Positions 15,580 through 56,052 of a stretch of DNA of 64,000 nt are shown here, in pieces. The stretch's first letter is position 1. Every line of letters begins with the position of its first letter. The DNA is taken from NCBI GenBank assembly GCA_945881775.1, contig CAMCVE010000012.1, positions 8,073 to 72,072 of the forward strand, in the 5' to 3' direction. Source of the stretch: Bacteriovorax stolpii. Lineage in GTDB: Bacteria; Bdellovibrionota; UBA2428. The notes under the pieces were generated by a model. The model did no database searches. It had not been told where the DNA came from and worked only from the letters and a program-made list of their open reading frames with translations. Position numbers and translations under genes: made by a program.

Positions 15580-16644
15580 ATGGAAGCGAAAAAATCCCAC
15601 ATCAAGCTCCCTGAAAGTCTGAAGGATCTACCTAAAGACTACTCGGGCTACGTCGTGATTTCGGACATCGATAAGACCTACCTTGCCACTCAGATCGATT
15701 CGATCGGAGGGCTCCTCAAAACAGCGTTTGAGACCGCCGAGGCAAAAGACAATATTCCCGGATTTTCGATTGTGCTGCGAGCGCTTCGCCGCGGAGCCGC
15801 AAGCGAAGCGCAAAACAACCCCATCTATTTCGTGAGTGCCTCTCCGCCGCAGATGCAAGAAACGCTTATGGCCAAAATGGAGCTCGATGGCATCGAACAC
15901 AATGGCATTGTGTTTAAGGATCAACTCCAACACGTGCGTCGTCGGGACTTTAAAAAATTAAAGGAGCAAATCGGTTACAAGCTCGAGGCTTTGTTGCTTT
16001 TGTGGCTGGCTGTTCCGCACACCTCCAAGATTATTTTGTTTGGGGACGACAGCGAAAGCGACCCAGCGATCTACTCTCTGTTTTGCGACATTCTCGGGGG
16101 AGTGCTTCGAGGTCCCACGCTTCAAAGCCTGCTGATGTCGCTCGGAGTTTTTGCGGAAGAGTTGGAAAAGATTTTAAAACTCGCGGACCGAATCACCGAT
16201 GTTTCGTTTCCGGTTGAGTTTGCGTTTATCAATCTCGTGACCGGCTCACAGGCGCCCTACTACTCGCGCTTTGGTCCACATTTCTACGCCACTGAAAACT
16301 CTCTTCAAGTTGCGCTCACTCTGTACGAAAGGAACTTGATTCGAGAGCAAGCCGTGCGCTCTATCGGTCGCGATCTCGCCCTTTATTACGATCTGAGTCC
16401 CCATAGGATTCTGGAGAGTCTCAAGTTCGGTGCGCAGCGCGGGCTCTACGGCCACTCAACTCTTCGCAAGCTTTGGCTGATGCTGGCGCAGGCTCGTGTC
16501 CTGCCGGAGCCGCAGACGGAGGATCTTGAAGACACCGAGGTCGGCGAAGTCACGCGCTTAAATCGTCAGCGCTGGGTGGAAGAGATGGGTCGTGGGGATC
16601 TCAAGAGTCTCAAGCTTCGCTATAGCGACGAAGGTCGCTATTAG
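15580..16644 (+). CDS. App1/DUF2183-like HAD phosphatase domain protein
   Basis: ISDIDKT (DxDxT), YFVSASP and ILFGDDSESD motifs. Confidence 0.75.
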   Translation: MEAKKSHIKLPESLKDLPKDYSGYVVISDIDKTYLATQIDSIGGLLKTAFETAEAKDNIPGFSIVLRALRRGAASEAQNNPIYFVSASPPQMQETLMAKMELDGIEHNGIVFKDQLQHVRRRDFKKLKEQIGYKLEALLLLWLAVPHTSKIILFGDDSESDPAIYSLFCDILGGVLRGPTLQSLLMSLGVFAEELEKILKLADRITDVSFPVEFAFINLVTGSQAPYYSRFGPHFYATENSLQVALTLYERNLIREQAVRSIGRDLALYYDLSPHRILESLKFGAQRGLYGHSTLRKLWLMLAQARVLPEPQTEDLEDTEVGEVTRLNRQRWVEEMGRGDLKSLKLRYSDEGRY

Positions 16645-17468
16645 CGGCCCTCTTCCACAGAATTTTTGAGCCACTCTTCTACGGACCTGTTCAGATCTTT
16701 GCGATCTTCACCGAATGAATAGAGATGCGTTGCACGGGGTTTCCACTCAAGACACAGTTGGGCAGCGTATCGCTTGATGAGATCGGGAAAAAGTTCTCCA
16801 AATTGCTTTAGGGCGTTGAAGCGGAAAGGCGAATCGCCCGTATAGATCCATAGGCACCGGGCCCCGCGCTTGAGCGTGGCCTCGAGCGCGTTTTGGATTT
16901 GTGCGACGCTGAGCGAAGCAGACTCTGGGTTGAAGATGATGTTCTGGACGCTCGCGCGTTGTCTGGTGGGACCGAAGTGGCGAATCAGGAGGTTTCTCCA
17001 TTTTCTCCAATGGGTCGCCTGAGCGATTCGTCGTAGCCAGTAGTTCTGCGATGCTGGGATTGGAAGATCGAGGAGTACGAGACCTTGGACTCGAGGGTCC
17101 CGGGGTGCGTAGAGAAGAGCCGTGTAGGCTCCGGCACAAAGTCCTATGAGGACAAATTTTCGGTAACCAAATTCTTGTTCTAAGGTCTCGAGAGTTTCTG
17201 CAATGTCGACGAACGTGCGCTCGATCGGATCTGAGGGAGAGCTACGCTCGCAGCTGTCTCCTAGCTTGGCTTGATCCAAGCGAAGATGGTCAAAGCCCAA
17301 ATTCGTGATGTGTCGACCCAGCGTTACGTGCAGCCTAAAGGGCCCGACTCGCGGGAGCATCCCGGCGTTGAGGAACACGACGAGAGTATCTGACGGAAGC
17401 TCTGATCCTTGTGAGAGTACGGCGACCATGCCTTGGTGGGATCCAAGAATGAGGACTCTTTCTTTCAT
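16641..17468 (-). CDS. Alpha/beta-hydrolase with Cys nucleophile (resembles exosortase-associated hydrolase 1 type)
   Basis: NAGMLPRVGPFR, RLDQAKLGDS, GLCAGA elbow and a C-terminal H. The ATG at 17468 overlaps the upstream stop (ATGA). Confidence 0.75.
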   Translation of the reverse strand: MKERVLILGSHQGMVAVLSQGSELPSDTLVVFLNAGMLPRVGPFRLHVTLGRHITNLGFDHLRLDQAKLGDSCERSSPSDPIERTFVDIAETLETLEQEFGYRKFVLIGLCAGAYTALLYAPRDPRVQGLVLLDLPIPASQNYWLRRIAQATHWRKWRNLLIRHFGPTRQRASVQNIIFNPESASLSVAQIQNALEATLKRGARCLWIYTGDSPFRFNALKQFGELFPDLIKRYAAQLCLEWKPRATHLYSFGEDRKDLNRSVEEWLKNSVEEGR

Positions 17469-18127
17469 TGGGATAGGCTCCGTATCAAAAGTTCGAGACT
17501 TGGGCCCGGCATCCAGGGGACCTCTCGACGCGTTGAGATCGTCCAATCTTCAGAAATGGGGTGAGAGACGTTTTTCTCGGGCACGCTACGTAGCTTTGGG
17601 ATGTCTTCTCGAAGTTGTGGGGGATACAAGTAGCCGACGCGCTCATCCTCAACGTGAAGCTGGCGAGCTACCAGGCTGAGGTTGCGAGCGTCGAAGTCGA
17701 GTCGATCGATTTCGTTCATCCACTGAGCGCCGGAGGCAGGCGCATGCCAACCCAGCACAGGGGTACTGCCTGGATGACTCTGAAGGGCGTGAGCGGCGAC
17801 AAGCGCACCCAGGCGCAAACCCACCACGATAATTTTGTGCTGTGGGGCCAATGACCTGAGCTCGTTCATTGCAAAATTGAAATCTTCGCTCAGCTGCAAC
17901 AAAGAAGTGGGCGCCTCGCCCCAAGAGTCGCCACAACCCCGCCAGTCAAAACGAAAAGCGGGTCCCTTCCAGCGTTCGGCGGCTATTCGTAGAGCGCGGT
18001 GGGCGCGGCCGTTCTCGTGGCCAATGCTGGGGCACAAGAGAAGTGCCACGCTCTGTTGGGTCTCTTGGGCCGCATGAAAAACTCCGAGCAGCGGTGTCTG
18101 GCTCGGTCCAAAGAAGTCGACTTTCAC
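17465..18127 (-). CDS. Alpha/beta-hydrolase-like protein lacking the Ser nucleophile (resembles exosortase-associated hydrolase 2 type)
   Basis: LLCPSIGHE, RFDWRGCGDSWG and GLRLGA elbow. The GTG start overlaps the NRPS/PKS stop (GTGA). Confidence 0.75.
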   Translation of the reverse strand: MKVDFFGPSQTPLLGVFHAAQETQQSVALLLCPSIGHENGRAHRALRIAAERWKGPAFRFDWRGCGDSWGEAPTSLLQLSEDFNFAMNELRSLAPQHKIIVVGLRLGALVAAHALQSHPGSTPVLGWHAPASGAQWMNEIDRLDFDARNLSLVARQLHVEDERVGYLYPPQLREDIPKLRSVPEKNVSHPISEDWTISTRREVPWMPGPSLELLIRSLSQ

Positions 18128-21100
18128 GTTCGCCTCCGTCTTAAGAGTCGCTGGAGCCAGTTCTGGGGCGGTGCTTTATGAAGGGCGGTGGCGAGCTCCG
18201 AGAGAGTGTGTGTGAGTAGAATCTGTGGATTCACCGTGCAACCGAAGACGTTTTCGAGGCGATTGAGCAACTGTATCGCGAGCAGGGAGTGCCCGCCCAC
18301 ATCAAAAAACGTGTCACTGCGCCGAACGGCAGACGCGCTGTGCGTGAGGGATCTCCAGATCTCGGCGACCGTAACTTCTGCAGGAGTCTGGGGCAATGAT
18401 GTGTCGGCGGGGGGGGCAGATTGAATGGCTTTTGTGGAAATCGGCGATTGGCTCTTGATGGCCGAGCAATGAACTTCGAAGTCAGCACCCTCGGCGATCT
18501 TTTTTAGAAGGACTTGGAACTCTTGCAGCAAGTGTTCTGCGGTCTGTGAAGTGAAGAGTTCAGTGGAGTAATCGAGTTCGGCGTGCAGACCCTTCCCCGT
18601 TTCTTTGAAGGCGAGTGAGATCTCTGTCGCAATGTGTCCCGAGTGCAGGTGAACCTGACCGAGCTCCAGGTTTCCGAAGGACTGGCTTCGGTTGCGTGTG
18701 TCTTGGTAAGAAAAGAATGCTTGATAGAGGGCCGCGCTGCTTGTGCGGCTGTTTCCTGGGAGAAGTTCAGAAATTTTTTCAAAGGGCATGTCCTGATGGG
18801 CTAGTGCCCCTAGGGAGGCATCCCGAACGTTTTTCAGCAGCGTTGAGAAAGTGGTACCCTTAGGAATTTTGTTACGAAGTAGAACTGTGTTCACAAAGAA
18901 ACCAATCACACCAAGCGTTTCTGGCCGCTGTCGGCCTTGCACGGGAACTCCCACGCAGAAATCTTCCTGCCCAGACCATTGGTGAAGGAGAACTTTGTAG
19001 ACGGCTAAAAGGAGCATTGAAAGCGTCGCCCCTTGTGATGTGGCAAAGCGTGAGAGGTTCTTCACGAGAGCCTCTGGGACCGAAAACTCCATCATCTTAC
19101 TTTGGTACTTGAGTGAATCGGGACGGACGTGGTCTGCGGGCAACCTGAGTGGAGGCATGTCCATAAGGGCTTGCTTCCAGAACGGAGCGTGCACATTCCT
19201 ATTGCGAAGTTGAGTCTGAGACTGCCACTGAGCAAAATCTCGGTACTGGATCTGGAGCGGCTGAACCTTAATCTCGGCACCTTGCTCGAGGGAGGCATAT
19301 CCCGAGCCGAGCTCATCGAGCAAAAGGTCAAAGGACCATCCATCGAAAATCAGGTGATGCACAACAATGGCCATGACATGTTCGTGTTCAGATGTCTCAA
19401 AGACCCGGGCCCAGAACAGAGGTCCTTGTTTAAAATCAAAAATGCGTCGGACTTCGGTGTCGAGTCGAGCCTGTAGCTTGGAGCTTCCAATTTTTTCAAA
19501 TCCTAGGTCGAGCTTAAATGGTTTTTGCTCAAGCCGAGCGCCTTGTGCGTCCTCAACGAATACGATTGAAAGTGCAGTTTGGCGCGTGAGAAGCGAATCG
19601 AGTGAGTCTTGCAGTGCTTTGCGGCTCAGCTTGCCTTTGAGTACAAACGCTGCTGGTAGATTAAACGCGCGGCTATCCGGAAACAAACGTGCAAGATAGT
19701 AGAGGCGGGCTTGCATCGGCGACAGCGACACGCGAGCAGAGGTCTCGACTCGAGGAATATCTTCTAAGGGTAGTTGTGAGCTCCGACATTTTTGAGCCAT
19801 GGATCCGAGGGTGGCTTGAGCAAAAATGTCGGGCAGCGCGAGTTCTAAGCCCTCTTTTTCCAGGAGTCCGATGAGTCTTAGAGCAAGCACGGAGTGCCCG
19901 CCCAAAACGAAGAAATCTGAATCTGGCTCGAGCTGATTCATCTCGATACCAAGCACTTGTGACCACGCCTGCGCGAGTTGGACTTCGGCGTCGCTGAGCC
20001 CTCGCAGCGCGGATCGAGGTGCCTGCGAAGGAGGGGGAGCTTCAGCCAATTTCTTCAGAGCAACTCTGTCGATTTTGTCGTTGGCCGTCATGGGTAGAGA
20101 GTCGAGTCGATGATACCGAGTCGGTATACTGTTCTCGGCAAGGCGGCCTAGTAGCTGAGACCGTACTCCGCTTGCTGCAAGCAAGGTGCTAGAAACATAA
20201 AACGCCACGAGCTCGATTCCGGCAGGACCCTGGGCTGCGAGCACTGCGGATTGGGTGAGATCAGCGATCGATGCGAGCGCCGATTCGACCTCTCCGATCT
20301 CAATGCGATATCCCCGAATTTTGACTTGCTGGTCGCTCCGGCCCAGGATCTGTAGGTCTCCATTAGGAAGACGCCGACCCAAATCTCCCGTTCGGTAAAG
20401 GGAAGTTCCAGAACTGGCGCCCTCAAAGGGAGCGGCGACGAACTTCTCGTGAGTGAGCGATTCATTTTTCCAATATCCTTTGGCAACGCCCCATCCTCCG
20501 ATGCAGATCTCGCCAACAACTCCGGCAGGCAGGGGTTGCAGATTTGTATCGAGGATATGGATCTGCGTTTGACGTATCGGAGAGCCAATCGGGATAGAGA
20601 TGGCCTTAAGATGCTCTGGAGTCACGCGGAGGCAAGAAGACCAGATCGTCGTTTCAGTAGGTCCGTACATGTTCCACAGCTCACGACTGGTTCTAAGAAG
20701 TTCGCTTGCCAGTTCTTTGGGAAGCGGTTCTCCGCCTGCGAGAGCTCTAAGGTTGAGCGAGGCATCTGAAAGTCCCGCGAGTTGAAGCAGGGTCCAGCTT
20801 GTGGGAGTTGCTTGCAGTGTGGTGATGCGTTGTTCGCGCAGGCACGCTACGAGCGCGCGACCATCTCGAGCCATTTCGCGATCAAGGACCACAAGTTGCG
20901 CGCCGCAAATCAGCGGGAGATAGATCTCGAGACCAGCGATATCGAAGGTTAAGGTCGTGATTGCAGCGATGCGATCCTCGGGGCTAAGGCCCGGACATTC
21001 TTTCATGGAGAGTAGGAAATTTACAAGCGAGCCATGCGTCACCACGACGCCTTTTGACTTACCCGTCGAGCCCGACGTGTAGAGGATGTAGGCAGGCGTG

Positions 21101-24100
21101 CTCGCAGGAACCAGTGGAAGTGCCGTCGGAGCTTGTTTGAGATCAAGGGGTGATTCGAGCAAATCCTCGACCCACACTACGTTTCGCTCAAAAGTTGAGG
21201 CAATTTTTTGGTAGGCGCGCGAAGCCAGAACGAGCGTTGGATCCGCATCGCGGAGAATATCTAGAACTTTTGTGATCGGATACTGAGGATCGAGTGGCAC
21301 GTACGGCGCTTCGCAGCTCAGCACACCTAGGAGCGTTGCGGGCAATTGAGCTGTGCGATCGAGCAAGAGCGCAACACGGTCGCCAGGCTTCAAACCCGCG
21401 CGAAGTAGACCCTGCCAGACCTGAATGGCTGCGCGAGTGAGGCCGTCTCGGTCGAGCACTCGACCCTGCAGATCACTCACTTTGAGGCGGGAATCAAGCA
21501 AGGAACTCAGTGCGGGCTGAGTTTCAAAGGATTCAAGGGAGGGCTGCGGGGGGTTGAGGCTCACCAAGGGGAGAGCCGCAACGGGAGAGGTGGGATCGGC
21601 GGCCGCGCTGGCGAGATAGTGGCAGAGCGATTGCATCAAAGCGGTCATCTGCTCGTCACTAAAGAGATCAAGGCTGTACTGCGTCTCCAGGGTCAGGCCC
21701 CCGTCGAGTGTTTCAACAGCGTTGATAAAGAGCTCGAAATTTTCCGAGACGCGAGGCAAAGACAGGAACCCTGCATGCAGGCCGCTCCAATCGAATTTTG
21801 TGACATCGAGTGTTTGGTCGAGATTGAAAAGCACGGGCATCAGAGGCACACGGTCCTCGTGGCGCGAAACCTTCATGTCCCTTAATATTTCTTGGAACGT
21901 CGTATCACCGTGTTCAAATGCATCCAGCAAAACGCTGCGACTTGCCTTGATGTTGTCGACAAACGAACGCGCGGTTGCGGGGCGCACGCGTACAGGAAGC
22001 GTGTTCACGCAGTGCCCAACGAGCGTTGGAAAGTCGCAAGAAGCTTGTCCGGCTTTAGCCACTCCCATCACAAAGTCATTTTGCCCACTCATCCGGGCAA
22101 ACCACGTTGTGACTCCGGTGAAGAGTGTCGTAAAGAAACTCGTCCCATTCTTTAGCCCAGCTTCTCGCAGGGCTTGGATCTGCCCAGGGGCAAGAGGCCA
22201 ATCGAGTCTTTTCGATTCGAAACTTCGATTCGCCGTTCGCTCTTTATCAATGGGGAGTCGAAGACGTTCGGGGAGCGTCGTGTAGACACCTCTCCAGTAC
22301 TTGCGGTTTCTATCTTGAAGCTTTGAGCGAGCCAGTGCGTAGTCGGTCATTGATCCGGCTGGCGAGAGAGCGGGTTCGAGTCCCTTGATAAATGAACCGT
22401 AGGCAAGGGCGAGTTCCTTTATGATAATTCCTAACGACCACCCATCGCAGACGATGTGATGCGCGCAGATTCTCAGGCGCTGCTGTGTTGGACCGTCTTC
22501 AATCAAAGAGAAGCGAATCAGGGGTCCGTGGGTCAAATCAAACGGCAGCTCCGTCTCCTGAATATCTTTGACGGAGATCAAGGGGCCTGCGGGCATCGGA
22601 GCTTCGTGAAGTGCGCCGGTCTTCGCATCAAAGCGCGCTCGCAAGGAAGCGTGACGTTTAAGAAGCCACTGGAGAGCTGCTTCGAGGGCTTTTTTATTGA
22701 GCTCACCACTGAGTCTCAGCTCGACCGCCTCGTTGTAGGAGAGGCTCGCTTGAGAACTCATCTGACTCGCCATCCAGATTTCTCTTTGGGCGGGAGTCGA
22801 CGAACGGTCTTCTCCTCTTCTAAAGAAGCCAGCATCTTGCATCTCAGCTACAGAATCTTCAAATGCCTTATGACATTGTTCCAAGTCGGCTTGGCTGTGT
22901 GATGCCGTGAGGAAACAGGGAAAGTTCTCGATGATGTGGATGCCCTTGCTGCGCATCAGCAGACAAAAGAGTTCCGAGTACGGGGTCTCTTCGAGAAAGC
23001 TCAATCTAAACATCGAAGCAAAGTGGTGCAACTCAAAGGGTGCCCCCACGGACTTGAGGTGCTCGTTCACCTGCTCGACGAAGTTCTGGGTGCGAGCATT
23101 CAAGCTTTTTTGAAGCTCAGGTCCCTCACTCTTAAGATGCTTGAGGACTGCAAAGGCCGCTGAGAGCGCAAGCGGATGTCTCAGGTAGGTGCCCGCAAAG
23201 TAAGTGACTCCCACTTCGGGACGCGACTCATCTCCGAAGCGCCAGTCACCGCCGTCCAGAGCGTCCATGAATTTGCGTTTGCCGGCGATCACGCCGATGG
23301 GATTGCTGCCGCCAACAACTTTGCCATAACTGGCCAGGTCGGCTTTGACGTCGAAGATCGCCTGGGCCCCCTGCGGATGCGCCCGGAGGCCGGTGATCAC
23401 CTCATCGAAAATCAGACAAATCTCTGTCTGCTCGGTCAGAGTGCGTAGCTCTTTCAAGAAAGCTGTGGGCTGAAGGCGTGGGTTTCGAGACTGGACGGGC
23501 TCTACCAGAACGGCAGCGATTTCTGAGGCACGGTCTCGAATAACTCGGAGGCTGTCAGAATTTCCGTACTCAAGAACGATCACGTTTCCGACACTCGAAG
23601 GCATGATTCCGGGAGCTGCGGCGTAGGCGCGACCATTCTTTCCACCGCGGACAATCACTTCGTCGACGATGCCATGATAGGACCCTGCAAAGACTACGAG
23701 CAGATCTCTCTTCGTCACGGTGCGTGCGATGCGGACGCATCCCAAAACGGCTTCAGAGCCAGTGCAGCAAAAAGCCGCCCGCTCATTTCCGGTGATCTCG
23801 CAAAAGAGTTTTGCAGTTTCCCCGGCAAGAGGCGTTGAGGGACCCACCTCAATTCCCAAATCGAGTTGAGCTTTTTGGGCCTCCTTTATAAAGTCTGGAG
23901 AGTGGCCAAGGAAGTTGGTTCCAAAGCCGTTCAGAAGATCAATGTACTCGTTGCCGTCGATATCCCAGAGTTTTGATCCCTTGGATCGAGAGACAGCGAC
24001 AGGATAAACAATCTCTTTGGTGGCTGGCTTGAAGCCAGACACCACCCGAGGATCCGCAAAGTGGGCGCGGTTCTCGCTAGCGTGCGCTTTAGAGCCGGCT

Positions 24101-28935: not shown

Positions 28936-28977
28936 GTGCCTAGTATCTTAGTGCCTGGGTGGAGGGTCGTTAAGATG

Positions 28978-29688
28978 TCAAAATACATCGATGATTCGCG
29001 TCGTTTTTTCGGCCGCAACGCTTGTTTCGCACACGAAGAGATCGGCGAACTTTTTCCATGTTCCGGTGAGAGTCCGGGAGCTTTTAGAGTCGAACACTTT
29101 GAACAGTCCTGAAGAGTTTAATTCTCGCAAATCAAGATCTCGGAAATCTCTGAAGACGTTGTCCAGAGGGTTGAGGGCTTTGTAGACAGCTTCTTTGGCG
29201 GCAAAGGCGCAGCTTAGAAACTCTTCTGGACTCATCCATTTGGGGGCTTGGAGCCGTTCGCTCTCGCTCAGAACGCGTCCTTCAATCTCCAGGCGCAAAA
29301 GTGGAGAGACGCATCTTTCGGCGTCAACGCCCACCGAACTCAAAAGATCTGTGGACGAAATTATTACAATGGCAAAGTCTCGCGTATGGCTGATGGATCC
29401 CACAAATCCCCGAGGCCAAATGGGCCGGCGGTCACGGGCGCGCCCGACGCTCAGGTCTGTGGAGCCCAGCAGATCCAGCGCCAGGGCGGCGCACGCCCGG
29501 CCAGCGCAAAATTCTTGACGCCGCGACGTTACAGCTTGGTTCCACTCCGGACCTAAACGGAGCAGCTCTTGTGGAAGATTCCACGACAAGACCTGTCGGT
29601 CCGGATTCGAAAAATACAGAGCATTTTCGATGTCACTGAAAGGTCCCTCAAGCGAAACACAGGCCGTTCGGTTCGGGAAAATACTCAT
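28978..29688 (-). CDS. 4'-phosphopantetheinyl transferase (EntD-like)
   Basis: RRQEFCAGR, PIWPRGFVGSISHT, GVDAE and FAAKEAVYKA. Confidence 0.92.
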   Translation of the reverse strand: MSIFPNRTACVSLEGPFSDIENALYFSNPDRQVLSWNLPQELLRLGPEWNQAVTSRRQEFCAGRACAALALDLLGSTDLSVGRARDRRPIWPRGFVGSISHTRDFAIVIISSTDLLSSVGVDAERCVSPLLRLEIEGRVLSESERLQAPKWMSPEEFLSCAFAAKEAVYKALNPLDNVFRDFRDLDLRELNSSGLFKVFDSKSSRTLTGTWKKFADLFVCETSVAAEKTTRIIDVF

Positions 29689-29696
29689 CGGAGTCT

Positions 29697-43165: not shown

Positions 43166-43166
43166 A

Positions 43167-49062: not shown

Positions 49063-49070
49063 ACGAGGCC

Positions 49071-50138: not shown

Positions 50139-50231
50139 AATTCAATAAAAACGATATTTTAAGTATAGGCCTGCTCAGAGATAAAACAAGCTCTAGGAGG
50201 TTATGACGCGATGTGTTATAAGGGGGCGCTC

Positions 50232-51239
50232 ATGAACCTCAAATTCATCAAATCCAAGGCCCTTGTGCTGGCAACTTTGGCGATGCTCGCGGGCGCTTGT
50301 GCTTCGAAACCGCAACGCTTTTCGGGTTCAGCCGACAGTGAAGCCAGTTCCAAAGATCTTCGCAAAGACAGCGCGCCGTCGAAGGCGCCGCGAGTGAATA
50401 AGGACGCTGTCTATCCTGGGTATTCGATTCGCCTCACAAGTCTCGATGATCGCAAGCTCAATGGCCAGTTTCGGATTCGCTTCGATGGGAGCCTTCCTCT
50501 TCCGTACAATATTGTCCTGAACAAGGTCGACGGCATGACTCTTCCTGAATTGACCGAAATGATTCGCGAACGCTACCGGCCCTTTTTCACGGGAGCGGTC
50601 CAGATCGAAGTCTCCCTGGCAGAGCGCCGCGTGTGGCTCGATGTGCGTGGTTTGGTCATGAAGCCAGGAAAACAACTTGTCTCCACTGATGCAGGCCTTG
50701 ACGAGCTGATTGCTCTCGCCGGTGGGCTGCAGCCAAATTCTCAAGCGAGCGAAGTTTTTGTGAAACGTGCCGACGGTTCGGAGTCCTCATTTGGTCTGGC
50801 GCGCGTCTATGAAATGAGCCGTGGTATCGGTCCCTGGTCTGGCGGCGAAACGGTGTTCTTCCGTCCAGCGGAAGGTTCAAGCCTCTTTAGAGATAAGGAT
50901 CTGGAGTCGCGCTCGGTGCAAATTCTTGGCGAAGTTCGCAAACCTGGTCTTATTCTCTTTCGCTCGGAAGCTGACTTTCTCTATTACTTAACGCGCGCCG
51001 AAGGACCCACCGCAGCTGCAGACTTAGAGCGCATCGATGTGGTTCGCGGAGGCATCCCCAATGCTCAGGCCATCCAGGTCAAGTGGAGCGAGATCAATGA
51101 ACTCCCTGCTCTGCAACCTGGGGACATCGTGATCTTGCGCGCACGCGAGCCCTCGTGGTGGACCGAAAAAGCCCTTCCCGTTATTTCGAGCGTCTCAACG
51201 GTGCTTGGTACAATCCTGCTCGGAATCATCGTCTTGTGA
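50232..51239 (+). CDS. wza: Polysaccharide export lipoprotein (Wza/OPX, SLBB domains)
   Basis: Lipobox LAGAC, Poly_export segment FDGSLPLPY, SLBB repeats (GLVMKPG, GEVRKPG, LQPGD) and a C-terminal helix. Confidence 0.82.
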   Translation: MNLKFIKSKALVLATLAMLAGACASKPQRFSGSADSEASSKDLRKDSAPSKAPRVNKDAVYPGYSIRLTSLDDRKLNGQFRIRFDGSLPLPYNIVLNKVDGMTLPELTEMIRERYRPFFTGAVQIEVSLAERRVWLDVRGLVMKPGKQLVSTDAGLDELIALAGGLQPNSQASEVFVKRADGSESSFGLARVYEMSRGIGPWSGGETVFFRPAEGSSLFRDKDLESRSVQILGEVRKPGLILFRSEADFLYYLTRAEGPTAAADLERIDVVRGGIPNAQAIQVKWSEINELPALQPGDIVILRAREPSWWTEKALPVISSVSTVLGTILLGIIVL

Positions 51240-51249
51240 GGAAATGAAT

Positions 51250-51882
51250 ATGAATCTCATCCACTCCACACCTGCCACCTCCACAAGTGAAACGCGCGGT
51301 GCCGTTCAAAAGATGCTCCAGTACATGGAGATGAGACGCTGCATCGACCGCATTTTCGACCGGGTTGATTCGCCGAGGATTGTGGCTGTCACGAGTCTCG
51401 TGCCGGGAGAGGGTAAGACCACTTTTTGTCTCGCAGCCGCTTGGAGCCTCGCGGAACGTTTGGGTCGTAAGGTTCTTGTCGTTGATACGGCCAACATGGT
51501 GCGCTCAAAGTCGACCATCTTAAGCGACGTTTGCGGCGTCGAAATGGATCGTCCGTTTGAGGTTCAGAAAGTCCAAGGTGGTCCCGCATCGATGTCCTAC
51601 ACCTGGATACCTCCGTCGATGGGAAGCACCCGCGCTCTCAAGTCTCAAATCGAAAGACTTTCTGCGGATTTCGATGTTGTGATTATGGACACTGTCGCGC
51701 TGAGCATCAGCAGTCGACTCGAGAACGATCCCCTCGAAATGGCTTCGGTGGCCAATGCCATGGTCTTAGTGCGTGGTGAGACGCGCATCGAGCTCGATGC
51801 CAACATAAAGCTCGAAGAACTTCAAAATGCTGGTGTGCGAGTGCTGGGAATTGTGGCCAATCGCTTCGGGGGTGTGGCTTGA
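51250..51882 (+). CDS. Stand-alone BY-kinase/CpsD-like P-loop ATPase
   Basis: VAVTSLVPGEGKTT, VLVVD, FDVVIMDT and VLGIVANR. Confidence 0.8.
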   Translation: MNLIHSTPATSTSETRGAVQKMLQYMEMRRCIDRIFDRVDSPRIVAVTSLVPGEGKTTFCLAAAWSLAERLGRKVLVVDTANMVRSKSTILSDVCGVEMDRPFEVQKVQGGPASMSYTWIPPSMGSTRALKSQIERLSADFDVVIMDTVALSISSRLENDPLEMASVANAMVLVRGETRIELDANIKLEELQNAGVRVLGIVANRFGGVA

Positions 51883-53027
51883 GTTCTGTCTCCGGTGGAG
51901 TCGATGTTCGTGAAATTTTCGCGGTTATTCGTCGCTCGCGCAAGATGGTGGGCCTAATCGTCGGAATTTGCGTTCTCATTTTTGCCGTTGCTTCGCTCGT
52001 GGCTCCGAAGCGCTACAAGTCGGTCGGGCTTGTGGGCATTCAAACCGACTATTTCCGCTATCCTCTGATCGAGGAATTTGTCCCCGCTCCTCAAGACATC
52101 AGCGAACTCGCTTCGCGCCGCGATGCGCTCATTCGTGCCGCGCTCTCGGATCAGTTCCTCGAACCCATGGGACGCAAGTTAGGACTCGTGAAATCTCCCA
52201 AAGGGTCGCCGTCCGCTGAAATTGAAATCGAGTACCTTCGCAACCGCTTTGAGTACTACCCGCTCTCTCTCTCAACGATTCAGGTCGTATTTTCGGGAAC
52301 CAATGCGCGCTCAACTCAGGAATCCGTCGACCAGGCGATGCAGCAAATTCTTGCGGTCTTCGCGCAGCAGCGACGTGAGCGCATTCAACATGCCCGCGAC
52401 AATATCCAAACTCAGATTGAGTCGATGGCTCTTCAACAAGATCCTTCGAGTTCCTTGCAGGCGATCGGCAAGCCTGAACTGATTCAGTCCGAAATTGGTC
52501 GCATCGAAGCCGAAACAGAAATGATGAAGTCCAGACTCTCCGCGCGGCACCCCACGGTTCTTGCTCTCGTGCGTCGGGCGGAAACCCTGAAGCGCAATTT
52601 GAAGGCTGCCACGGGATCTGTCACGTCCTCGGCGCGGATGCCTCTGCTTGTGGGTGGAAGTCCGCAAAAAGCTTTTAACGAAGTCTATGAGGGCATGGTC
52701 AAGAAGCTTGCGTACCTGAACGTGGCGCTCGAGTTCGAGAGCGATCCGCGTTCTTCTTACGTGAGCGTGCTTCAGCCAGCGAGTTACCCCATCGGAGCGT
52801 CGTGGCCCAATCGTCCCCTCTTTCTTATTTGGGGTCTTCTGATCGGACTCGTACTTGCGGGTCTCGCGCTCACGGGCCTCGAGTTCTTTACGCTCAGTTC
52901 GACTCACGGGCGCCGTCTTGCAGATAGAACGGGTCTTCCTCTGCTTGGGGAAATGCCCACACTTCCTAAATCCTCTTCTGAATCTAAGACCGATTCCAAA
53001 GTGAAGTTGCCTGAGCAACCGCTATGA
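51879..53027 (+). CDS. Polysaccharide co-polymerase (Wzz/GumC/Wzc N-terminal-like)
   Basis: Two TM segments flanking a periplasmic coiled coil, HPTV, P..ASWPNR and GLPLLGEMP. Confidence 0.82.
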   Translation: MSSVSGGVDVREIFAVIRRSRKMVGLIVGICVLIFAVASLVAPKRYKSVGLVGIQTDYFRYPLIEEFVPAPQDISELASRRDALIRAALSDQFLEPMGRKLGLVKSPKGSPSAEIEIEYLRNRFEYYPLSLSTIQVVFSGTNARSTQESVDQAMQQILAVFAQQRRERIQHARDNIQTQIESMALQQDPSSSLQAIGKPELIQSEIGRIEAETEMMKSRLSARHPTVLALVRRAETLKRNLKAATGSVTSSARMPLLVGGSPQKAFNEVYEGMVKKLAYLNVALEFESDPRSSYVSVLQPASYPIGASWPNRPLFLIWGLLIGLVLAGLALTGLEFFTLSSTHGRRLADRTGLPLLGEMPTLPKSSSESKTDSKVKLPEQPL

Positions 53028-54442
53028 CCCTGCAACTTGCTTACGTCATCGCGATGATCGAGCAAGTCGGATTTGGACTCTTGGTCGTCGCCCTGGTTTT
53101 TGTTTGTTGGGATGATATCAAGCGTGGTCTTTTAGGTCTGCGTTCTCCCGGGACCTTTGCTCCTGTTGCGATTTTTGTTGGAGTCGGTGTTTCTGTGACC
53201 GGATTCATGGCCCTTAACTGGGACCTTTTGCCTCTCGCCATTTCCATCGGTGCCGCGGCTGTCTTTGGACTGCTTTCGACGCGTTTTGCACTTTGTTTTT
53301 CGGTGGGTGCTCTGCTTCTGAGACCCTGGGAAGTTTTACCAGAAAACGACTTTCTCGGCGTGCTGCCGCGTGGCCTTGCGCTCCTCTTAGTCGGAACAGG
53401 TCTGCTAAGGCTTCGCGGCACGCGAGATTGGCGCTTGCTTGTGACGCCTGAGGACGGAGCCGTACTGGGATTTGCTTTTGTGAGCTATCTCTCCACATTT
53501 GTGGCTCCTTCTCTTTTTAATTCTCAAGCCGATTGGATGCTTACATTTTCCAAGTCGCTCATGATCTTCGTGTTGATTCGTCTCTTCGCGCGCCGGAAGT
53601 CCGACGTGGCTGCTTTGTGTCTCACGCTCGGGATCGTTGGAATGACGCTTGTCGCGATCACCTTGTACCGCATGGAGGCCGACCCTCGGCTCGGACAGAC
53701 GGGCGCGCGTGCGGATCTTTTTGGACTCATAGGAGACCCTAATGATTTGGCTGCGACGCTTCTTCTTGCGGCGCCACTTCTTATGGGTGAGCTCAGACAC
53801 TGGATTCCCCTCAAGGCTGTGCGCATGGCGATCATCGCTGCTTTGTCTGTTCTCTCAATATGGGTGATTGTTCAGACGCAGTCCCGCGGAGCCTTTATCG
53901 GGGTTCTTGCAGCCATGGCTGCGCTCCTGTTCGTCGCTCTGAGAACTCCGAAGCGACTGCTCCTCGCGCTTCCGCTGATTCTGGCTTTGTCGGGAGGTCT
54001 ATTGTTCCGAACGATTCAACGAAGCGAGTCGGACCTTTCATCTTCGAGTTCGAGTCGAATGGCTTACTGGGTGGCGGGTTGGAGAATGGCGATTCGGCAT
54101 CCTCTCACAGGTGTTGGCTACGGGGCTTATCCACTGCGCTTCGAGGAGTACGCAGACTCTGACAAAGTCGAAGGCAAGCTTCGCACGGCGCATTCGACGT
54201 GGGTTCTAGCCCTTGCTGAGACGGGGCTCCTCGGCGGAGCTCTGCTCGTGCTGGCGGTGATCGGGTCGTTTTTTCGTGTTTTCAAAAGACGCTTCGATGA
54301 GCCCGCCGTTTTTGTGGCGTTTGTCGGGTATTTCGCGGCAGCGACTTTTCTTTCGCACACCTACCTGTTGCACCCCTACCTTTTGATCGGAATTGCATTG
54401 TGCGCTCGTGATGAGCGTCCCGAGGAGCTTAGGATTTTGTGA
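53024..54442 (+). CDS. O-antigen ligase/Wzy-like polymerase
   Basis: Multi-TM protein with DPNDLA, TQSRGA, HPLTGVGYG and AHSTWVLALAETGLLG. Confidence 0.85.
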   Translation: MTLQLAYVIAMIEQVGFGLLVVALVFVCWDDIKRGLLGLRSPGTFAPVAIFVGVGVSVTGFMALNWDLLPLAISIGAAAVFGLLSTRFALCFSVGALLLRPWEVLPENDFLGVLPRGLALLLVGTGLLRLRGTRDWRLLVTPEDGAVLGFAFVSYLSTFVAPSLFNSQADWMLTFSKSLMIFVLIRLFARRKSDVAALCLTLGIVGMTLVAITLYRMEADPRLGQTGARADLFGLIGDPNDLAATLLLAAPLLMGELRHWIPLKAVRMAIIAALSVLSIWVIVQTQSRGAFIGVLAAMAALLFVALRTPKRLLLALPLILALSGGLLFRTIQRSESDLSSSSSSRMAYWVAGWRMAIRHPLTGVGYGAYPLRFEEYADSDKVEGKLRTAHSTWVLALAETGLLGGALLVLAVIGSFFRVFKRRFDEPAVFVAFVGYFAAATFLSHTYLLHPYLLIGIALCARDERPEELRIL

Positions 54443-56052
54443 TGTCAAAGAGAAGTTGGTCGCGTGGTGTTTTGTTGCTAATTTTCATGGGGACGACCTC
54501 TTTTGCTCACGCTGCTTCAGAGGCCACATGGAAGATCAAAAAAGCGCAGTGGTCTGCGGCCGATGATAAGGCGTATTCCGACTTCATCCAAAAGCTCGGT
54601 GAAAGCTCCTGCTCGACGACGGGTGCCTGTCTGGACAGCGAAGCCAACCCCTACCGCGCGCGCAATCCGAGCTTTGTGAAGTCGGTGTCTTCGGACTGTT
54701 CGCGTTTTCCGTATCTTTTGAGACTCTACTTTGCGTTCATGAACGATCTGCCATTCTCGTACGTGGCTAAGGTTTCTGCTCTAGGGAGATCGGGCGACAT
54801 TGCTCAGTCTCCAGAGGGCAATACCGTTGTCGCGCGTCGTTCAATCAAAGGTGGAATCACGCTTCGCAAAGCGGTTTCCGAGATGATGTCTCTGACCTCA
54901 TCGGGGATGTACCGAATTTCCCCGCGCGAAGATGTGAAGTCAAAAAATGTATTCCCCGATTTCTATCCCGTGGCTCTCGAGCGATCCGCCATACGACCCG
55001 GGACTTTGATCTATGATCCCAACGGCCATGTCGCGATGGTTTACAAGGTCGATCCGTTTGGAAGAGTGCGTTTCATGGACGCGCATCCCGACAATTCCAT
55101 CACGCGTGGCACCTATGGCGAGCGTTTTGCGCGTAGCCGCCCGGCGCTCGCTGCGGGCCTTAAAAACTGGCGTCCGATCACACTCACCACGTCCGGCGAT
55201 ATTGTCGGCGCTAAGAATGCGGAGATCTCAGACTACAGCCTCATTCAGTATACGGGAACGCATCCCTCCACGGATCCCGAATGGGAATGGAGGCAGAACC
55301 GTTTTGTGGTCGAGGGAGTGGACTTTGAGTTTTACGACTACTTGCGCTTGAAGCTTGCTGAGAAAAAGTTTCGCTTTGATCCCATCCAAGAGACGCGCGA
55401 CTTGCTTGAGGGGCTGTGTTTCGATTTGCGGGACCGGGTCGAATCCGTTCAGGAAGCTCTTCAGAATGGCATTGCCGACAAGGAACATCCCGCGATGATC
55501 CCTGCAAACATCTATGGGAGCGAGGGCGAGTGGGGAGTCTTCTCGACGCCCTCGCGAGATGCGCGGCTCAAGTTGGCTTTCCTTGAAACTGAGCGGAAGT
55601 TGAAGCAATTTCTTCAGCTCGTCGCGGTCTCCTCAGACCGCGTGATTTACAGCGGCGGAGTCGAAGACTTGCGTCTCGAAATGCGTGCACTGGTTGAGGC
55701 TTCCCACGAGTCGTGTCGCTTGAGCTATCGGAATTCGCGCGGCGATGAGCAGAGCTTCGGAATTGCTGACATTGAGGGACGCCTCTGGGATTTGTCTTTT
55801 GATCCCTATCATTGCCCTGAACTTCGTTGGGGAGCCCGAGACGTTGAGCTCGAGTCGTGCCGCGATTCGAGCTTGAAGCGCGAATGGTACGACGCCGAGA
55901 TCCAGCTTCGAGCCCGTGTGGATCGAGGCGAGCCCGTCCGAGGGCGGGACAGATCGCTCTCGGATCTCTGGAACGAGGTCCGCCAGGGACCGGATTCTCG
56001 TCCCGCACGGGTTGATTTCCTGAAAGCCATCGAAACAGGTGGTGGGATATAG
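54439..56052 (+). CDS. Secreted hypothetical protein, possible NlpC/P60-like cysteine hydrolase
   Basis: Signal peptide; DCSRFPY...YDPNGHVAMV...FMDAHPD; start overlaps the Wzy-like stop. Confidence 0.65.
   Translation: MMSKRSWSRGVLLLIFMGTTSFAHAASEATWKIKKAQWSAADDKAYSDFIQKLGESSCSTTGACLDSEANPYRARNPSFVKSVSSDCSRFPYLLRLYFAFMNDLPFSYVAKVSALGRSGDIAQSPEGNTVVARRSIKGGITLRKAVSEMMSLTSSGMYRISPREDVKSKNVFPDFYPVALERSAIRPGTLIYDPNGHVAMVYKVDPFGRVRFMDAHPDNSITRGTYGERFARSRPALAAGLKNWRPITLTTSGDIVGAKNAEISDYSLIQYTGTHPSTDPEWEWRQNRFVVEGVDFEFYDYLRLKLAEKKFRFDPIQETRDLLEGLCFDLRDRVESVQEALQNGIADKEHPAMIPANIYGSEGEWGVFSTPSRDARLKLAFLETERKLKQFLQLVAVSSDRVIYSGGVEDLRLEMRALVEASHESCRLSYRNSRGDEQSFGIADIEGRLWDLSFDPYHCPELRWGARDVELESCRDSSLKREWYDAEIQLRARVDRGEPVRGRDRSLSDLWNEVRQGPDSRPARVDFLKAIETGGGI

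What the first reader, a model, noticed from the sequence alone, without database searches (positions are those of the whole stretch)
16641..56052. Candidate new system: thioesterase-less NRPS/PKS linked to an exopolysaccharide cluster
Seen: a compact minus-strand unit (methyltransferase, M28, PPTase, 3603-aa NRPS/PKS, two hydrolases; gaps of 68, 8 and 42 bp, then GTGA/ATGA overlaps). One gene separates it from a Wza/CpsD/Wzz/Wzy-like cluster with four stand-alone GTs, a GT2-priming GT fusion, FkbH+ACP, ATP-grasp, GNAT-like, acetyltransferase and deacetylases. The NRPS unit has no thioesterase or reductase, exporter or regulator. Known: KS followed by a class-III aminotransferase (as in MycA and McyE) converts a beta-keto thioester to a beta-amino one. 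Inference: the line builds an amino acid + C2 diamino-acyl-Gly unit that is transferred onto the surface glycan or its lipid-linked intermediate rather than released, giving a cationic peptide-decorated EPS/capsule. Similar enzymes may exist in other genomes; I know of no characterised product.
Basis: partly seen in the sequence, partly recalled or inferred. Interest (0 to 1): 0.85.

Follow-up and report, generated by a model that had tools for sequence, protein, structure and literature searches.

The report
Peptide synthetase embedded in polysaccharide island
A lake bacterium of the phylum Bdellovibrionota carries one gene island that joins a surface sugar-polymer pathway to a small peptide-making enzyme line ending in an unusual two-protein release device, which suggests, but does not prove, that the peptide is attached to the sugar polymer.

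Summary
Genes, gaps and overlaps are as described. The 3603-aa protein reads A-T-KS-AT-T-aminotransferase-C-A(Gly)-T-C-T.

Three corrections:
- "Thioesterase-less" applies to this lineage only. 13 of 18 orthologous lines in other Bdellovibrionota carry a 254-296-aa tail after the last carrier domain; all 13 carry a GGS(M/F)GG serine motif, and Pfam names the one tested as a thioesterase. Here the two "hydrolases" replace it. They are distant relatives of the ACP-hydrolase 2-hydrolase 1 cassette of exosortase-A EPS loci. Hydrolase 2 has Arg at the nucleophile position; hydrolase 1 has Cys-Asp-His. They are predicted to bind each other.
- The last module has no A domain, so the product is probably a diamino-acyl-Gly-Gly.
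- The AT domain has non-canonical motifs.

The EPS link is supported:
- EPS genes adjoin 12 of 18 orthologous loci.
- 22 of 23 carriers in one family also hold a GH123-like EPS-locus gene.
- NRPS unit, EPS locus and a TolC-like gene form one ~41-kb island.

Covalent transfer to the glycan is unproven; I put it at about 0.4. This is a new variant of a known kind.

The parts
16641..17468 (-). hydrolase-1-like alpha/beta-fold protein (275 aa from the ATG at 17468), GLCAG nucleophile elbow; proposed acyl-accepting catalytic subunit of the release pair
   Evidence: The only NCBIfam hit is TIGR03100, 64.3 bits, below the 168.45 cut-off. Cys, Asp and His are conserved in 10-11 of the 11 close homologues, two of which are truncated before the His. 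Among 150 representatives, Cys is present in 149, Asp in 147 and His in 142. Model pLDDT 90.9.
17465..18127 (-). hydrolase-2-like alpha/beta-fold protein (220 aa) with Arg at the nucleophile position (GLRLG); proposed non-catalytic adaptor
   Evidence: Best NCBIfam hit TIGR03101, 44.3 bits, below the 202.75 cut-off. Arg at the elbow in 3 of 3 homologues and in the true TIGR03101 protein of G402. Fused after the last carrier domain in G262. Predicted to bind hydrolase 1: score 0.92, best control 0.00.
18124..28935 (-). 3603-aa hybrid NRPS-PKS, A-T-KS-AT-T-AmT-C-A-T-C-T; the only NRPS/PKS in the genome
   Evidence: Pfam/NCBIfam on the whole protein and on seven pieces; domain order by phmmer; tblastn of its domains on the genome.
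27436..28896 (-). A1, amino-acid adenylation domain (residues 14-500), specificity code DFWNIGGIFK
   Evidence: TIGR01733 412 bits; code read from alignment columns.
25978..27093 (-). KS domain (residues 615-986)
   Evidence: PF00109 219.7 bits, PF02801 134.1 bits.
24763..25542 (-). AT domain (residues 1132-1391) with non-canonical motifs GYSLG, Gln in place of the carboxylate-binding Arg, and YAYH
   Evidence: PF00698; alignment to solved AT domains 5yda and 8xjy.
22930..24006 (-). class-III aminotransferase domain (residues 1644-2002)
   Evidence: PF00202 138.5 bits; best NCBIfam hits are glutamate-1-semialdehyde aminomutase-type.
20074..21420 (-). A2, adenylation domain (about residues 2506-2954), code DILQLGMIWK (Gly type)
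   Evidence: TIGR01733 371.8 bits; code.
18184..18369 (-). T4, terminal carrier domain (residues 3523-3584) of an A-less C-T module, followed by a conserved Arg-rich tail
   Evidence: PF00550 44.8 bits in piece 7; tail in the consensus of six homologues.
28978..29688 (-). Sfp/EntD-type phosphopantetheinyl transferase
   Evidence: PF17837 78.6 bits, PF01648 36.4 bits. A PPTase homologue lies beside the NRPS genes in 14 of the 18 type I loci; three of the other four are cut by a contig end.
29697..30767 (-). M28 (LapA-like) aminopeptidase
   Evidence: PF04389 106.9 bits. An M28 homologue lies beside or in the locus in G133, G077, G129, G063 and G335.
30836..31660 (-). TIGR04325-family methyltransferase
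   Evidence: 166.9 bits, cut-off 80. Homologues lie next to the NRPS genes in G133 and G262.
31661..31743 (.). 83-bp divergent intergenic region between the NRPS unit and the EPS genes
   Evidence: Sequence. Promoter scan is at chance level. Related strains diverge here: loose ends at 31723/31755 in runs X3 and X5.
31744..33186 (+). 480-aa secreted protein of no family, a conserved member of the relatives' EPS loci
   Evidence: No Pfam/NCBIfam family. Homologues in the loci of G248, G236, G398, G283, G389, G133 and G335.
33189..38001 (.). hexapeptide acetyltransferase (33189-33890 -), two GT4 (33918-35078 +, 35075-36217 +), ATP-grasp (36204-37424 -), LMW phosphotyrosine phosphatase (37387-38001 -)
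   Evidence: Pfam/NCBIfam.
38050..41991 (+). FkbH (38050-39702), ACP-like (39717-39953), deacetylase-like (39950-40888), GNAT-like (40885-41991)
   Evidence: TIGR01686 285.1 bits; PF00550 20.3 bits; Atlas look-alikes. No FkbH homologue was labelled in any of the 26 relatives' loci.
41873..46600 (+). GT4 (stp1-like, 41873-43165), GT2 fused to priming phosphoglycosyl transferase (43167-45596), polysaccharide deacetylase (45530-46600)
46597..49062 (+). 821-aa lipoprotein (LALGAC lipobox), homologue of the GH123-like protein that follows the NRPS genes in family f9
   Evidence: Signal read. phmmer link to the 1057-aa protein of G129, which hits PF13320 GH123_cat at 23.9 bits, cut-off 23.1.
49071..56052 (.). 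GT2 (49071-50138 -), Wza-like (50211-51239), tyrosine-kinase-like (51205-51882), Wzz-like (51879-53027), Wzy/O-antigen-ligase-like (53024-54442), secreted 537-aa protein (54439-56052)
56110..57603 (+). TolC-like outer-membrane protein, last gene of the island
   Evidence: PF02321 101.6 bits. OEP homologues in the EPS loci of G283, G398, G133 and G335.
16645..57627 (.). ~41-kb accessory island (NRPS unit + EPS locus + TolC-like gene) between the APP1-like gene and the 129-aa/AhpC genes
   Evidence: In G002, G005, G012 and G014 the homologues of both flanks lie 0.7-5.5 kb apart on one contig. In G001 the matches stop at window 16515 (contig end) and resume at 57649. No tRNA and no border repeats.

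Best explanation
A ~41-kb accessory island of a lake-water Bdellovibrionota genome carries, as one unit, a Wzy-type surface-polysaccharide locus and the genome's only thiotemplate line.

The line works as follows:
- It loads an amino acid on A1 (code DFWNIGGIFK, substrate unknown).
- It extends it by one ketide unit.
- It transaminates the beta-keto group, giving a 3,4-diamino-acyl thioester.
- It adds Gly, and on an A-less C-T module most likely a second Gly loaded by the same A domain.

Orthologues elsewhere end in a thioesterase-type tail. Here the chain on the last carrier domain is taken over by a heterodimer. Hydrolase 2 has Arg instead of a nucleophile and acts as adaptor. Hydrolase 1 has a Cys-Asp-His triad. 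The pair is related to the ACP-hydrolase 2-hydrolase 1 cassette of exosortase-A EPS loci.

I propose that the peptidyl chain moves as a thioester to the Cys of hydrolase 1. From there it is passed, on the cytoplasmic side, to an amine or hydroxyl of the lipid-linked repeat unit, for example a de-N-acetylated amino sugar. The result would be an amine-rich (cationic) polysaccharide.

Shown: the genes, the domain order, the motifs, the replacement of the thioesterase, the linkage to EPS genes and the island.
Inferred: the substrates, the second Gly, the acyl-Cys intermediate and, above all, the glycan acceptor.
For: Anatomy.

Gly code: every downstream A domain of the 18 type I relatives and of P0003-P0007 reads DILQLGM(I/V)WK, and A-less C-T modules are common in the family.

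Thioesterase replaced:
- 13 of 18 orthologous NRPS2 proteins carry a 254-296-aa tail with a GGS(M/F)GG motif. PF00975 scores 88.2 bits for the one tested.
- The window, G283 and G262 instead have hydrolase 2 plus hydrolase 1. In G262 hydrolase 2 is fused after T4.

Pair signature:
- Cys elbow in 11 of 11 close homologues and 149 of 150 representatives.
- Arg elbow in 3 of 3.
- The same two motifs and the same order ACP-hydr2-hydr1 occur in a bona fide cassette: TIGR03101 297 bits, TIGR03100 337.7 bits, beside TIGR03097, TIGR03098 and TIGR03099.
- Fusions hydr2-hydr1, A-T-...-hydr1, hydr1-A and hydr1-T-KS-AT exist.
- Complex prediction: score 0.92, best of 3 controls 0.00. That mark was reached by 58 of 80 solved complexes and 2 of 110 mismatched pairs. 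The runs share at least 89% of their contacts and the partner's pLDDT is at least 90.

EPS link:
- 12 of 18 orthologous loci lie in or beside EPS loci, across 8 genera in 2 families, plus the window's own genus in a third family.
- In G129 ten consecutive same-strand genes run Wza-PPTase-NRPS-PKS-NRPS-GH123-like-cupin-cupin-priming transferase-827-aa protein-S41.
- In a 151-genome sample of family f9, 22 genomes hold both the type I line and the GH123-like gene, 1 only the line, 1 only the gene.
- The island has a single pair of boundaries.

Location: neither hydrolase shows a hydrophobic N-terminal segment of the kind seen in the secreted proteins of the island, so both are most likely cytoplasmic.
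Against: - No enzyme-acceptor link is shown. Nothing identifies a glycan as the nucleophile.
- 13 orthologues end in a thioesterase-type tail, which by default releases a free or cyclised product, and many of them sit inside EPS loci. So adjacency does not require covalent coupling.
- 4 of 18 orthologous loci have no adjacent EPS genes. In G133 and G077 the EPS locus lies about 75-95 kb away. In G381 and G363 no GH123-like homologue was found in genomes that are 99% complete.
- Both hydrolases score far below the curated cut-offs of TIGR03100/03101. The genome has no exosortase.
- The function of the exosortase-A cassette is itself unknown to me.
- No Wzx flippase was found.
- Related genomes are not independent, so the co-occurrence counts overstate the evidence.
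- The island contains a TolC-like gene that could serve export of a free product.
Confidence: 0.4

Rival explanations
1. The line makes a free, small, cationic peptide (diamino-acyl-Gly-Gly, linear or lactamised). It is released by hydrolysis or cyclisation: by the thioesterase in most lineages and by the hydrolase pair here. It sits with the EPS genes because both serve the same surface or matrix function or share regulation and export, for example through the TolC-like protein. There is no covalent bond to the glycan.
For: - Thioesterase-type tails in 13 of 18 orthologues.
- NRPS genes away from EPS genes in 4 of 18 loci.
- TolC-like genes in the island and in the relatives' loci; an ABC gene beside hydrolase 1 in G283.
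- The nearest solved relatives of hydrolase 1 are ordinary esterases.
Against: - Tight genome-wide co-occurrence with a glycan-related lipoprotein, 22 of 23 carriers.
- NRPS genes interleaved between Wza and the priming transferase.
- The thioesterase is replaced by a pair whose named relatives sit after an ACP inside EPS loci.
- A conserved Cys nucleophile and a dead partner are unusual for a plain hydrolase.
Confidence: 0.3
2. The coupling runs the other way. The peptide is the aglycone: an oligosaccharide built on the lipid carrier is attached to it, and the glycopeptide leaves the cell by the Wzy/Wza route. This is what was proposed for carenaemin of Collimonas arenae.
For: - PMC8313283 (passages of sections 9, 10 and 12 read): a secreted antifungal with a peptide core and sugar decoration requires a second locus predicted to encode the Wzy-dependent pathway. 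The authors propose attachment to a lipid-linked saccharide followed by export.
- The same linkage evidence as for the best explanation.
Against: - The locus encodes a polymerase-like protein (Wzy_C), a chain-length-determinant-like protein and an autokinase-like protein. These point to a polymer, not a small glycoconjugate.
- The carenaemin mechanism is itself a hypothesis.
Confidence: 0.12
3. NRPS unit and EPS locus are neighbours without a functional link. Variable surface and secondary-metabolite genes simply accumulate in the same plastic region.
For: - EPS loci vary among relatives. The GT2-priming-transferase fusion has only about 40% matches to its C-terminal domain in 18 of 19 family genomes.
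- The FkbH block was labelled in none of the 26 relatives' loci.
- Promoter and terminator scans are at chance level.
Against: - Linkage recurs across three families despite rearranged gene order.
- In family f9 the two occur together or not at all: 22 genomes with both, 127 with neither, 2 discordant, of 151.
- A 1-bp gap between Wza and the PPTase gene in G129 (coordinates).
Confidence: 0.1

Closest known systems
MycA/ItuA (mycosubtilin, iturin) and McyE: hybrid modules in which a KS is followed by a class-III aminotransferase (recalled knowledge)
   Same: KS-AT-carrier followed by an aminotransferase domain and then a condensation domain. This is the logic that turns a beta-keto thioester into a beta-amino acyl unit that enters a peptide.
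   Different: - The starter is an amino-acid adenylation domain, not a fatty-acyl ligase.
- The AT is integrated and has non-canonical motifs.
- There are only two further modules, both Gly, one without an A domain.
- There is no thioesterase.
- The line sits in an EPS island of a 2.3-Mb genome.
Exosortase-A (XrtA) system-associated cassette: ligase TIGR03098, decarboxylase TIGR03099, ACP, hydrolase 2 TIGR03101, hydrolase 1 TIGR03100. These are named families whose function I know of no test for.
   Same: - Order carrier protein - hydrolase 2 - hydrolase 1.
- Arg at the elbow of hydrolase 2 and Cys at that of hydrolase 1.
- Location in an EPS locus beside an O-antigen-ligase-like gene.
   Different: - Scores of 44.3 and 64.3 bits, far below the cut-offs.
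- No exosortase in the genome.
- No decarboxylase in the window.
- The single ligase/ACP is replaced by a four-carrier NRPS-PKS.
- Hydrolase 2 is shortened: 220 aa against 275-298 aa.
Dlt system (D-alanylation of teichoic acids): works-like comparison, recalled
   Same: An adenylation enzyme and a carrier protein supply an aminoacyl thioester that ends on a cell-surface glycopolymer and adds positive charge.
   Different: No DltB (MBOAT) or DltD family was reported for any ORF of the window. The unit is a tripeptide-like chain, and the transfer enzymes are of another fold family.
Carenaemin of Collimonas arenae Cal35 (PMC8313283)
   Same: A peptide-core metabolite whose sugar decoration and secretion depend on a locus predicted to encode the Wzy-dependent pathway (passages read).
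   Different: There the loci are separate. The product is a diffusible antifungal, and no KS-aminotransferase module or hydrolase pair is described in the passages I read.

Membership tests
Hybrid NRPS-PKS with KS-aminotransferase module (MycA/McyE type) | KS domain with the catalytic Cys and two His | tested here: met
   PF00109 219.7 bits and PF02801 134.1 bits. TACSTS, HGTGT and NMGH read by eye in the translation (motif identities recalled).
Hybrid NRPS-PKS with KS-aminotransferase module (MycA/McyE type) | Class-III aminotransferase domain in line after the PKS carrier domain | tested here: met
   PF00202 138.5 bits at residues 1644-2002, between T2 and C1.
Hybrid NRPS-PKS with KS-aminotransferase module (MycA/McyE type) | Fatty-acyl-AMP ligase starter (MycA/ItuA) | tested here: not met
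   A1 passes the amino-acid adenylation model: TIGR01733 412 bits, cut-off 317.4.
Hybrid NRPS-PKS with KS-aminotransferase module (MycA/McyE type) | Chain release by a thioesterase domain of the line | tested here: not met
   No PF00975 in the protein or in the unit. Orthologues do have it.
XrtA-associated hydrolase 2 / hydrolase 1 cassette (TIGR03101/TIGR03100) | Score over the curated cut-offs | tested here: not met
   44.3 against 202.75 bits and 64.3 against 168.45 bits. 27 of 27 representatives of the hydrolase 1 clade also fall below: 57-134 bits for the 25 whose TIGR03100 row was shown; the row was not among the 25 listed for the two fusions P0265 and P0382.
XrtA-associated hydrolase 2 / hydrolase 1 cassette (TIGR03101/TIGR03100) | Gene order carrier - hydrolase 2 - hydrolase 1 | tested here: met
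   T4, then 17465-18127, then 16641-17468 with 4-bp overlaps. ACP-TIGR03101-TIGR03100 in G402.
XrtA-associated hydrolase 2 / hydrolase 1 cassette (TIGR03101/TIGR03100) | Cys elbow in hydrolase 1 and Arg elbow in hydrolase 2 (features seen here, not part of the curated definition) | tested here: met
   GLCAG and GLRLG in the window; GLCDG and GLRLG in G402.
XrtA-associated hydrolase 2 / hydrolase 1 cassette (TIGR03101/TIGR03100) | Exosortase in the genome | tested here: not met
   PF09721: 0 matches in the 2.30-Mb genome, 94.9% complete.
Wzx/Wzy-dependent polysaccharide locus | Priming phosphoglycosyl transferase and Wzy-type polymerase | tested here: met
   PF02397 201.9 bits; PF04932 74.8 bits.
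Wzx/Wzy-dependent polysaccharide locus | Wza-type export protein, chain-length determinant and autokinase | tested here: inconclusive
   Only SLBB domains, and NCBIfam hits below cut-off: TIGR03027 33.2, TIGR01007 38, TIGR03007 55.1 bits.
Wzx/Wzy-dependent polysaccharide locus | Wzx flippase | tested here: not met
   None among the window's ORFs. In the genome, PF13440 gave one hit at the cut-off on contig C7, and PF01943 gave none. The relatives' loci do have one.
Dlt-type aminoacylation of a glycopolymer | MBOAT (DltB) and DltD partners | tested here: not met
   No such family among the Pfam/NCBIfam hits of the window's ORFs. The rest of the genome was not searched.

The most novel reading that the evidence does not exclude
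Hydrolase 2/hydrolase 1 heterodimers (dead Arg subunit plus Cys-Asp-His subunit) are a widespread, unrecognised class of carrier-protein off-loading acyltransferases. They graft thiotemplate-made aminoacyl or peptidyl units onto lipid-linked glycans. The island here is the NRPS-PKS-sized version. It makes a diamino-acyl-Gly-Gly-decorated, cationic polysaccharide in Bdellovibrionota. The same chemistry would explain the uncharacterised ligase-ACP-hydrolase cassette of exosortase-A EPS loci.
Probability: 0.25. Interest if true: 0.85.

Novelty: new variant of a known kind. Interest (0 to 1): 0.62.

Why it matters
If the peptide is attached to the glycan, this would be a thiotemplate-built, amine-rich decoration of a Wzy-type polysaccharide. 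It would come with a new release and transfer device.

That device has thousands of relatives: 4795 representatives at E up to 0.001. They include the function-unknown hydrolase pair that NCBI names after exosortase A. A single biochemical test on this pair would therefore bear on a whole family.

The cluster also recurs in cultivated-size, complete genomes of the same phylum, so genetics may be feasible there.

If the product is free, the finding reduces to an uncharacterised small cationic peptide whose genes travel with EPS genes.

Tried and rejected
- The search for related loci with the alignment of the six full-length homologues, on metagenome and genome contigs. The patterns chosen were generic A-domain motifs, and all 80 + 79 loci were ordinary NRPSs at 27-45% identity. 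PMC1569441 holds none of 'hydrolase', 'acyl carrier', 'ligase' or 'decarboxylase'. PMC8067016 mentions NRP and polyketide clusters in Bdellovibrionota only in one sentence that points to its Table S4, which I could not see.

Full report
WHAT IS THERE

The window is G000:C12:8073-72072 of a 2.30-Mb, 34-contig genome, 94.9% complete. Its nearest named NadE relatives are labelled Bdellovibrionota or Bdellovibrionales. Near-identical DNA occurs in lake-water metagenome runs of several studies.

On the minus strand lie six genes:
- a TIGR04325 methyltransferase
- an M28 peptidase
- an Sfp-type PPTase
- a 3603-aa megasynthase
- two alpha/beta-fold proteins.

The gaps are 68, 8 and 42 bp, followed by GTGA and ATGA overlaps. 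An 83-bp divergent spacer separates them from a plus-strand 480-aa secreted protein and a polysaccharide locus. The locus holds a hexapeptide acetyltransferase, three GT4, one GT2, an ATP-grasp, an LMW phosphatase, FkbH with an ACP-like ORF, two deacetylase-like proteins and a GNAT-like protein. It also holds a GT2-priming-transferase fusion, a lipoprotein of 821 aa, Wza-, kinase- and Wzz-like proteins, Wzy_C, a secreted 537-aa protein and a TolC-like protein. The Wza, kinase and Wzz calls rest on sub-threshold matches, and no Wzx flippase was found.

THE ASSEMBLY LINE

Pfam and NCBIfam on seven pieces, and phmmer with the protein's own domains, give this order:
- A1 (14-500)
- T1
- KS (615-986)
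- AT (1132-1391)
- T2
- aminotransferase (1644-2002)
- C1
- A2 (about 2506-2954)
- T3
- C2 (3069-3485)
- T4 (3523-3584).

It is the only NRPS or PKS in the genome.

A1 passes the amino-acid adenylation model (412 bits), so the starter is an amino acid and not a fatty acid. Its ten specificity positions read DFWNIGGIFK. The first six match what I recall as the Thr code; the substrate is open. A2 reads DILQLGMIWK, which I recall as a Gly code.

The AT is odd: GYSLG instead of GHSxG, Gln where solved ATs have the carboxylate-binding Arg, and YAYH. The extender unit is therefore assumed, not read.

The last module is C-T without an A domain.

THE RELEASE MODULE

The two 'hydrolases' have TIGR03100 and TIGR03101, the hydrolase 1 and hydrolase 2 families named after exosortase A, as their best NCBIfam hits. 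For hydrolase 1 it is the only hit. Both score far below cut-off.

Hydrolase 1:
- It has a GLCAG elbow.
- The Cys, an Asp and a His are kept in the close homologues.
- Among 150 representatives, Cys is present in 149, Asp in 147 and His in 142.

Hydrolase 2:
- It has Arg at the elbow in 3 of 3 homologues.

In a bona fide cassette of G402 the order is ACP, then TIGR03101 (297 bits), then TIGR03100 (337.7 bits). The record title of L101 gives G402 as Massilia atriviolacea. The cassette sits next to TIGR03097, TIGR03098 (778.7 bits) and TIGR03099 (630.6 bits). Its two proteins show GLRLG and GLCDG.

Fusions tie the pair to carrier proteins:
- C-A-T-C-T-hydr2 in G262
- hydr2-hydr1 (P0389, P0404)
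- A-T-...-hydr1 (P0382)
- hydr1-A (P0265)
- hydr1-T-KS-AT (P0341).

The complex predictor supports binding of the two window proteins: score 0.92, best of 3 controls 0.00. That mark was reached by 58 of 80 solved complexes and 2 of 110 mismatched pairs. The runs agree in at least 89% of their contacts and the partner's pLDDT is at least 90. My own alignments were used, so the calibration counts hold only roughly.

ORTHOLOGUES

Five metagenome proteins share the exact architecture at 83-54% identity over residues 1450-2500.

In 400 other genomes of the phylum, 26 have an aminotransferase match at E up to 1e-60. None of the 19 genomes of the own family does. Hydrolase 1 was not found in 40 relatives beyond four marginal hits.

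Of the 26, 18 are 'type I': A-T-KS-AT-T-AmT on one protein and C-(A)-T-C-A-T on the next. The other 8 are a different KS-AT-AmT-C protein of about 2000 aa with a type II thioesterase and a stand-alone A domain.

Every downstream A domain of the type I lines reads DILQLGM(I/V)WK. A1 varies: Pro-like DVQ(F/Y)xAHVxK in most, DPLFNGQIMK in two, DFWNIG... in the window clade and in G262. The conserved part of the product is therefore -Gly-Gly. One Gly A domain serves two condensation modules in most lines, which is why I infer a second Gly on T4.

Tails after the last carrier domain:
- 13 of 18 type I lines have a 254-296-aa tail with GGS(M/F)GG. The G063 tail scores PF00975 88.2 bits.
- Three are cut by contig ends.
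- G283 and G262 have the hydrolase pair instead.

LINK TO THE POLYSACCHARIDE GENES

EPS genes (Wza, Wzz, Wzy, Wzx, GT4s, priming transferase) adjoin the type I line in 12 of 18 relatives: G248, G169, G284, G236, G398, G305, G283, G129, G389, G063 and G299, plus G335 through a contig that starts inside an NRPS gene. These 12 span 8 genera in two families; the window adds a third family.

In G129 ten consecutive minus-strand genes run Wza, PPTase, NRPS-PKS, NRPS, GH123-like lipoprotein, two cupins, priming transferase, an 827-aa protein and S41 peptidase. The gap between Wza and the PPTase gene is 1 bp.

Four relatives lack adjacent EPS genes:
- In G133 the same EPS locus lies 75-95 kb away, with an empty slot between the lipoprotein gene and Wza. 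In G077 the lipoprotein gene lies about 78 kb from the NRPS genes.
- In G381 and G363 the flanks are kinases and housekeeping genes, and no homologue of the lipoprotein was found.

Two contigs are too short to tell.

In a 151-genome sample of family f9:
- 23 genomes have the type I line (identity 48% or more).
- 23 have the GH123-like lipoprotein.
- 22 have both, 1 has only the line (G465), 1 has only the lipoprotein (G414), and 127 have neither.

Related genomes are not independent, so this is a pattern, not a statistic.

ONE ISLAND

In four other genera of the own family (G002, G005, G012, G014), homologues of the APP1-like gene (window 15.6-16.4 kb) and of the AhpC-side genes (from window 58.0 kb) lie 0.7-5.5 kb apart on one contig. 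In the same-genus genome G001 the matches stop at window 16515, at a contig end, and resume at 57649. Window 16.6-57.6 kb, from hydrolase 1 to the TolC-like gene, is thus one accessory segment. It shows no tRNA and no border repeats, and its GC content does not stand out.

HOW IT MOST LIKELY WORKS

Shown:
- the domain order
- the Gly-type code
- the replacement of the thioesterase by the pair
- the Cys and Arg signatures
- the linkage and the island.

Inferred from family knowledge:
- amino acid, then Claisen extension, then transamination, giving a 3,4-diamino-acyl unit
- then Gly, then Gly
- a thioester intermediate on Cys111
- hydrolase 2 as docking subunit.

The acceptor is inferred only from context. 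Neither hydrolase shows a hydrophobic N-terminal segment of the kind seen in the secreted proteins of the island, so the partner must be reachable in the cytoplasm: water, an internal amine, or a lipid-linked or nucleotide sugar. I favour the lipid-linked repeat unit (0.4) over free release (0.3). My reasons are that the thioesterase was exchanged for a device whose named relatives sit after an ACP inside EPS loci, and that the line and glycan genes are gained, lost and moved together. The thioesterases of the other lineages are the main argument against.

LITERATURE

Six searches found no description of this cluster or of the hydrolase pair's function.
- The founding PEP-CTERM paper, PMC1569441, does not mention these genes.
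- PMC8067016 notes NRP and polyketide clusters in Bdellovibrionota in one sentence and refers to a supplementary table that I could not see.
- PMC8313283 proposes that a peptide-core metabolite of Collimonas is coupled to a Wzy-type pathway (passages read). This is the closest published idea.

VERDICT

A real, conserved, uncharacterised system. It is a new variant of known kinds: a KS-aminotransferase hybrid line, and carrier-dependent decoration of surface polymers. It offers a concrete, testable release device.

Noticed in passing
window 24763-25542 (AT domain): The active-site motif is GYSLG, Gln stands where solved ATs have the carboxylate-binding Arg, and YAYH replaces HAFH/YASH. Y1200, S1201 and the flanking Gly residues are invariant in the six close homologues. 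The extender unit, or even AT activity, is uncertain.
   Followed up: partly
window 18127-18183 (C-terminus of the megasynthase): After T4 the protein ends in an Arg-rich tail, consensus ...RLWRRRR, kept in the six close homologues. It may be a docking element for hydrolase 2.
   Followed up: no
window 31723-31755: In runs X3 and X5 (contigs 95-99% alike), contigs from both sides end with the same unlike letters at 31723 and 31755. Related strains therefore differ in the divergent intergenic region between the NRPS unit and the EPS genes.
   Followed up: no
G117, G348, G215, G103, G149, G368, G243, G334 (loci L196-L197, L216-L227): A second, unrelated Bdellovibrionota system: a KS-AT-AmT-C protein of about 2000 aa with a type II thioesterase and a stand-alone A domain. 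In G243 there is also a tryptophan halogenase. No EPS genes are nearby.
   Followed up: partly
P0265, P0341, P0382, P0389, P0404: Hydrolase-1-like domains are fused to an A domain, to T-KS-AT, to A-T and to hydrolase 2. The clade has 4795 representatives at E up to 0.001. All 27 tested fall below the TIGR03100 cut-off, i.e. they are unnamed by NCBIfam.
   Followed up: partly
window 38050-41991: The FkbH - ACP-like - deacetylase-like - GNAT-like block is a second carrier-protein-dependent module in the same locus. No FkbH homologue was labelled in any of the 26 relatives' loci. The cluster's PPTase is the only Sfp-type PPTase found by tblastn in the genome.
   Followed up: partly
whole genome / window: No Wzx-type flippase in the EPS locus. 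The genome gave only one PF13440 hit at the cut-off, on contig C7. The relatives' loci carry a Polysacc_synt_3 protein.
   Followed up: partly
G133:C3, locus L241-L242: In this genus the EPS locus keeps the order priming transferase - GH123-like - ... - Wza. The slot that holds PPTase and the NRPS genes in G129 contains a single 347-aa ORF, and the NRPS genes lie 75-95 kb away with the methyltransferase and M28.
   Followed up: partly
G129, G063, G389, G283 loci: One or two Cupin_8 (JmjC-like) genes accompany the NRPS genes. None is in the window. They may hydroxylate the peptide in those lineages.
   Followed up: no
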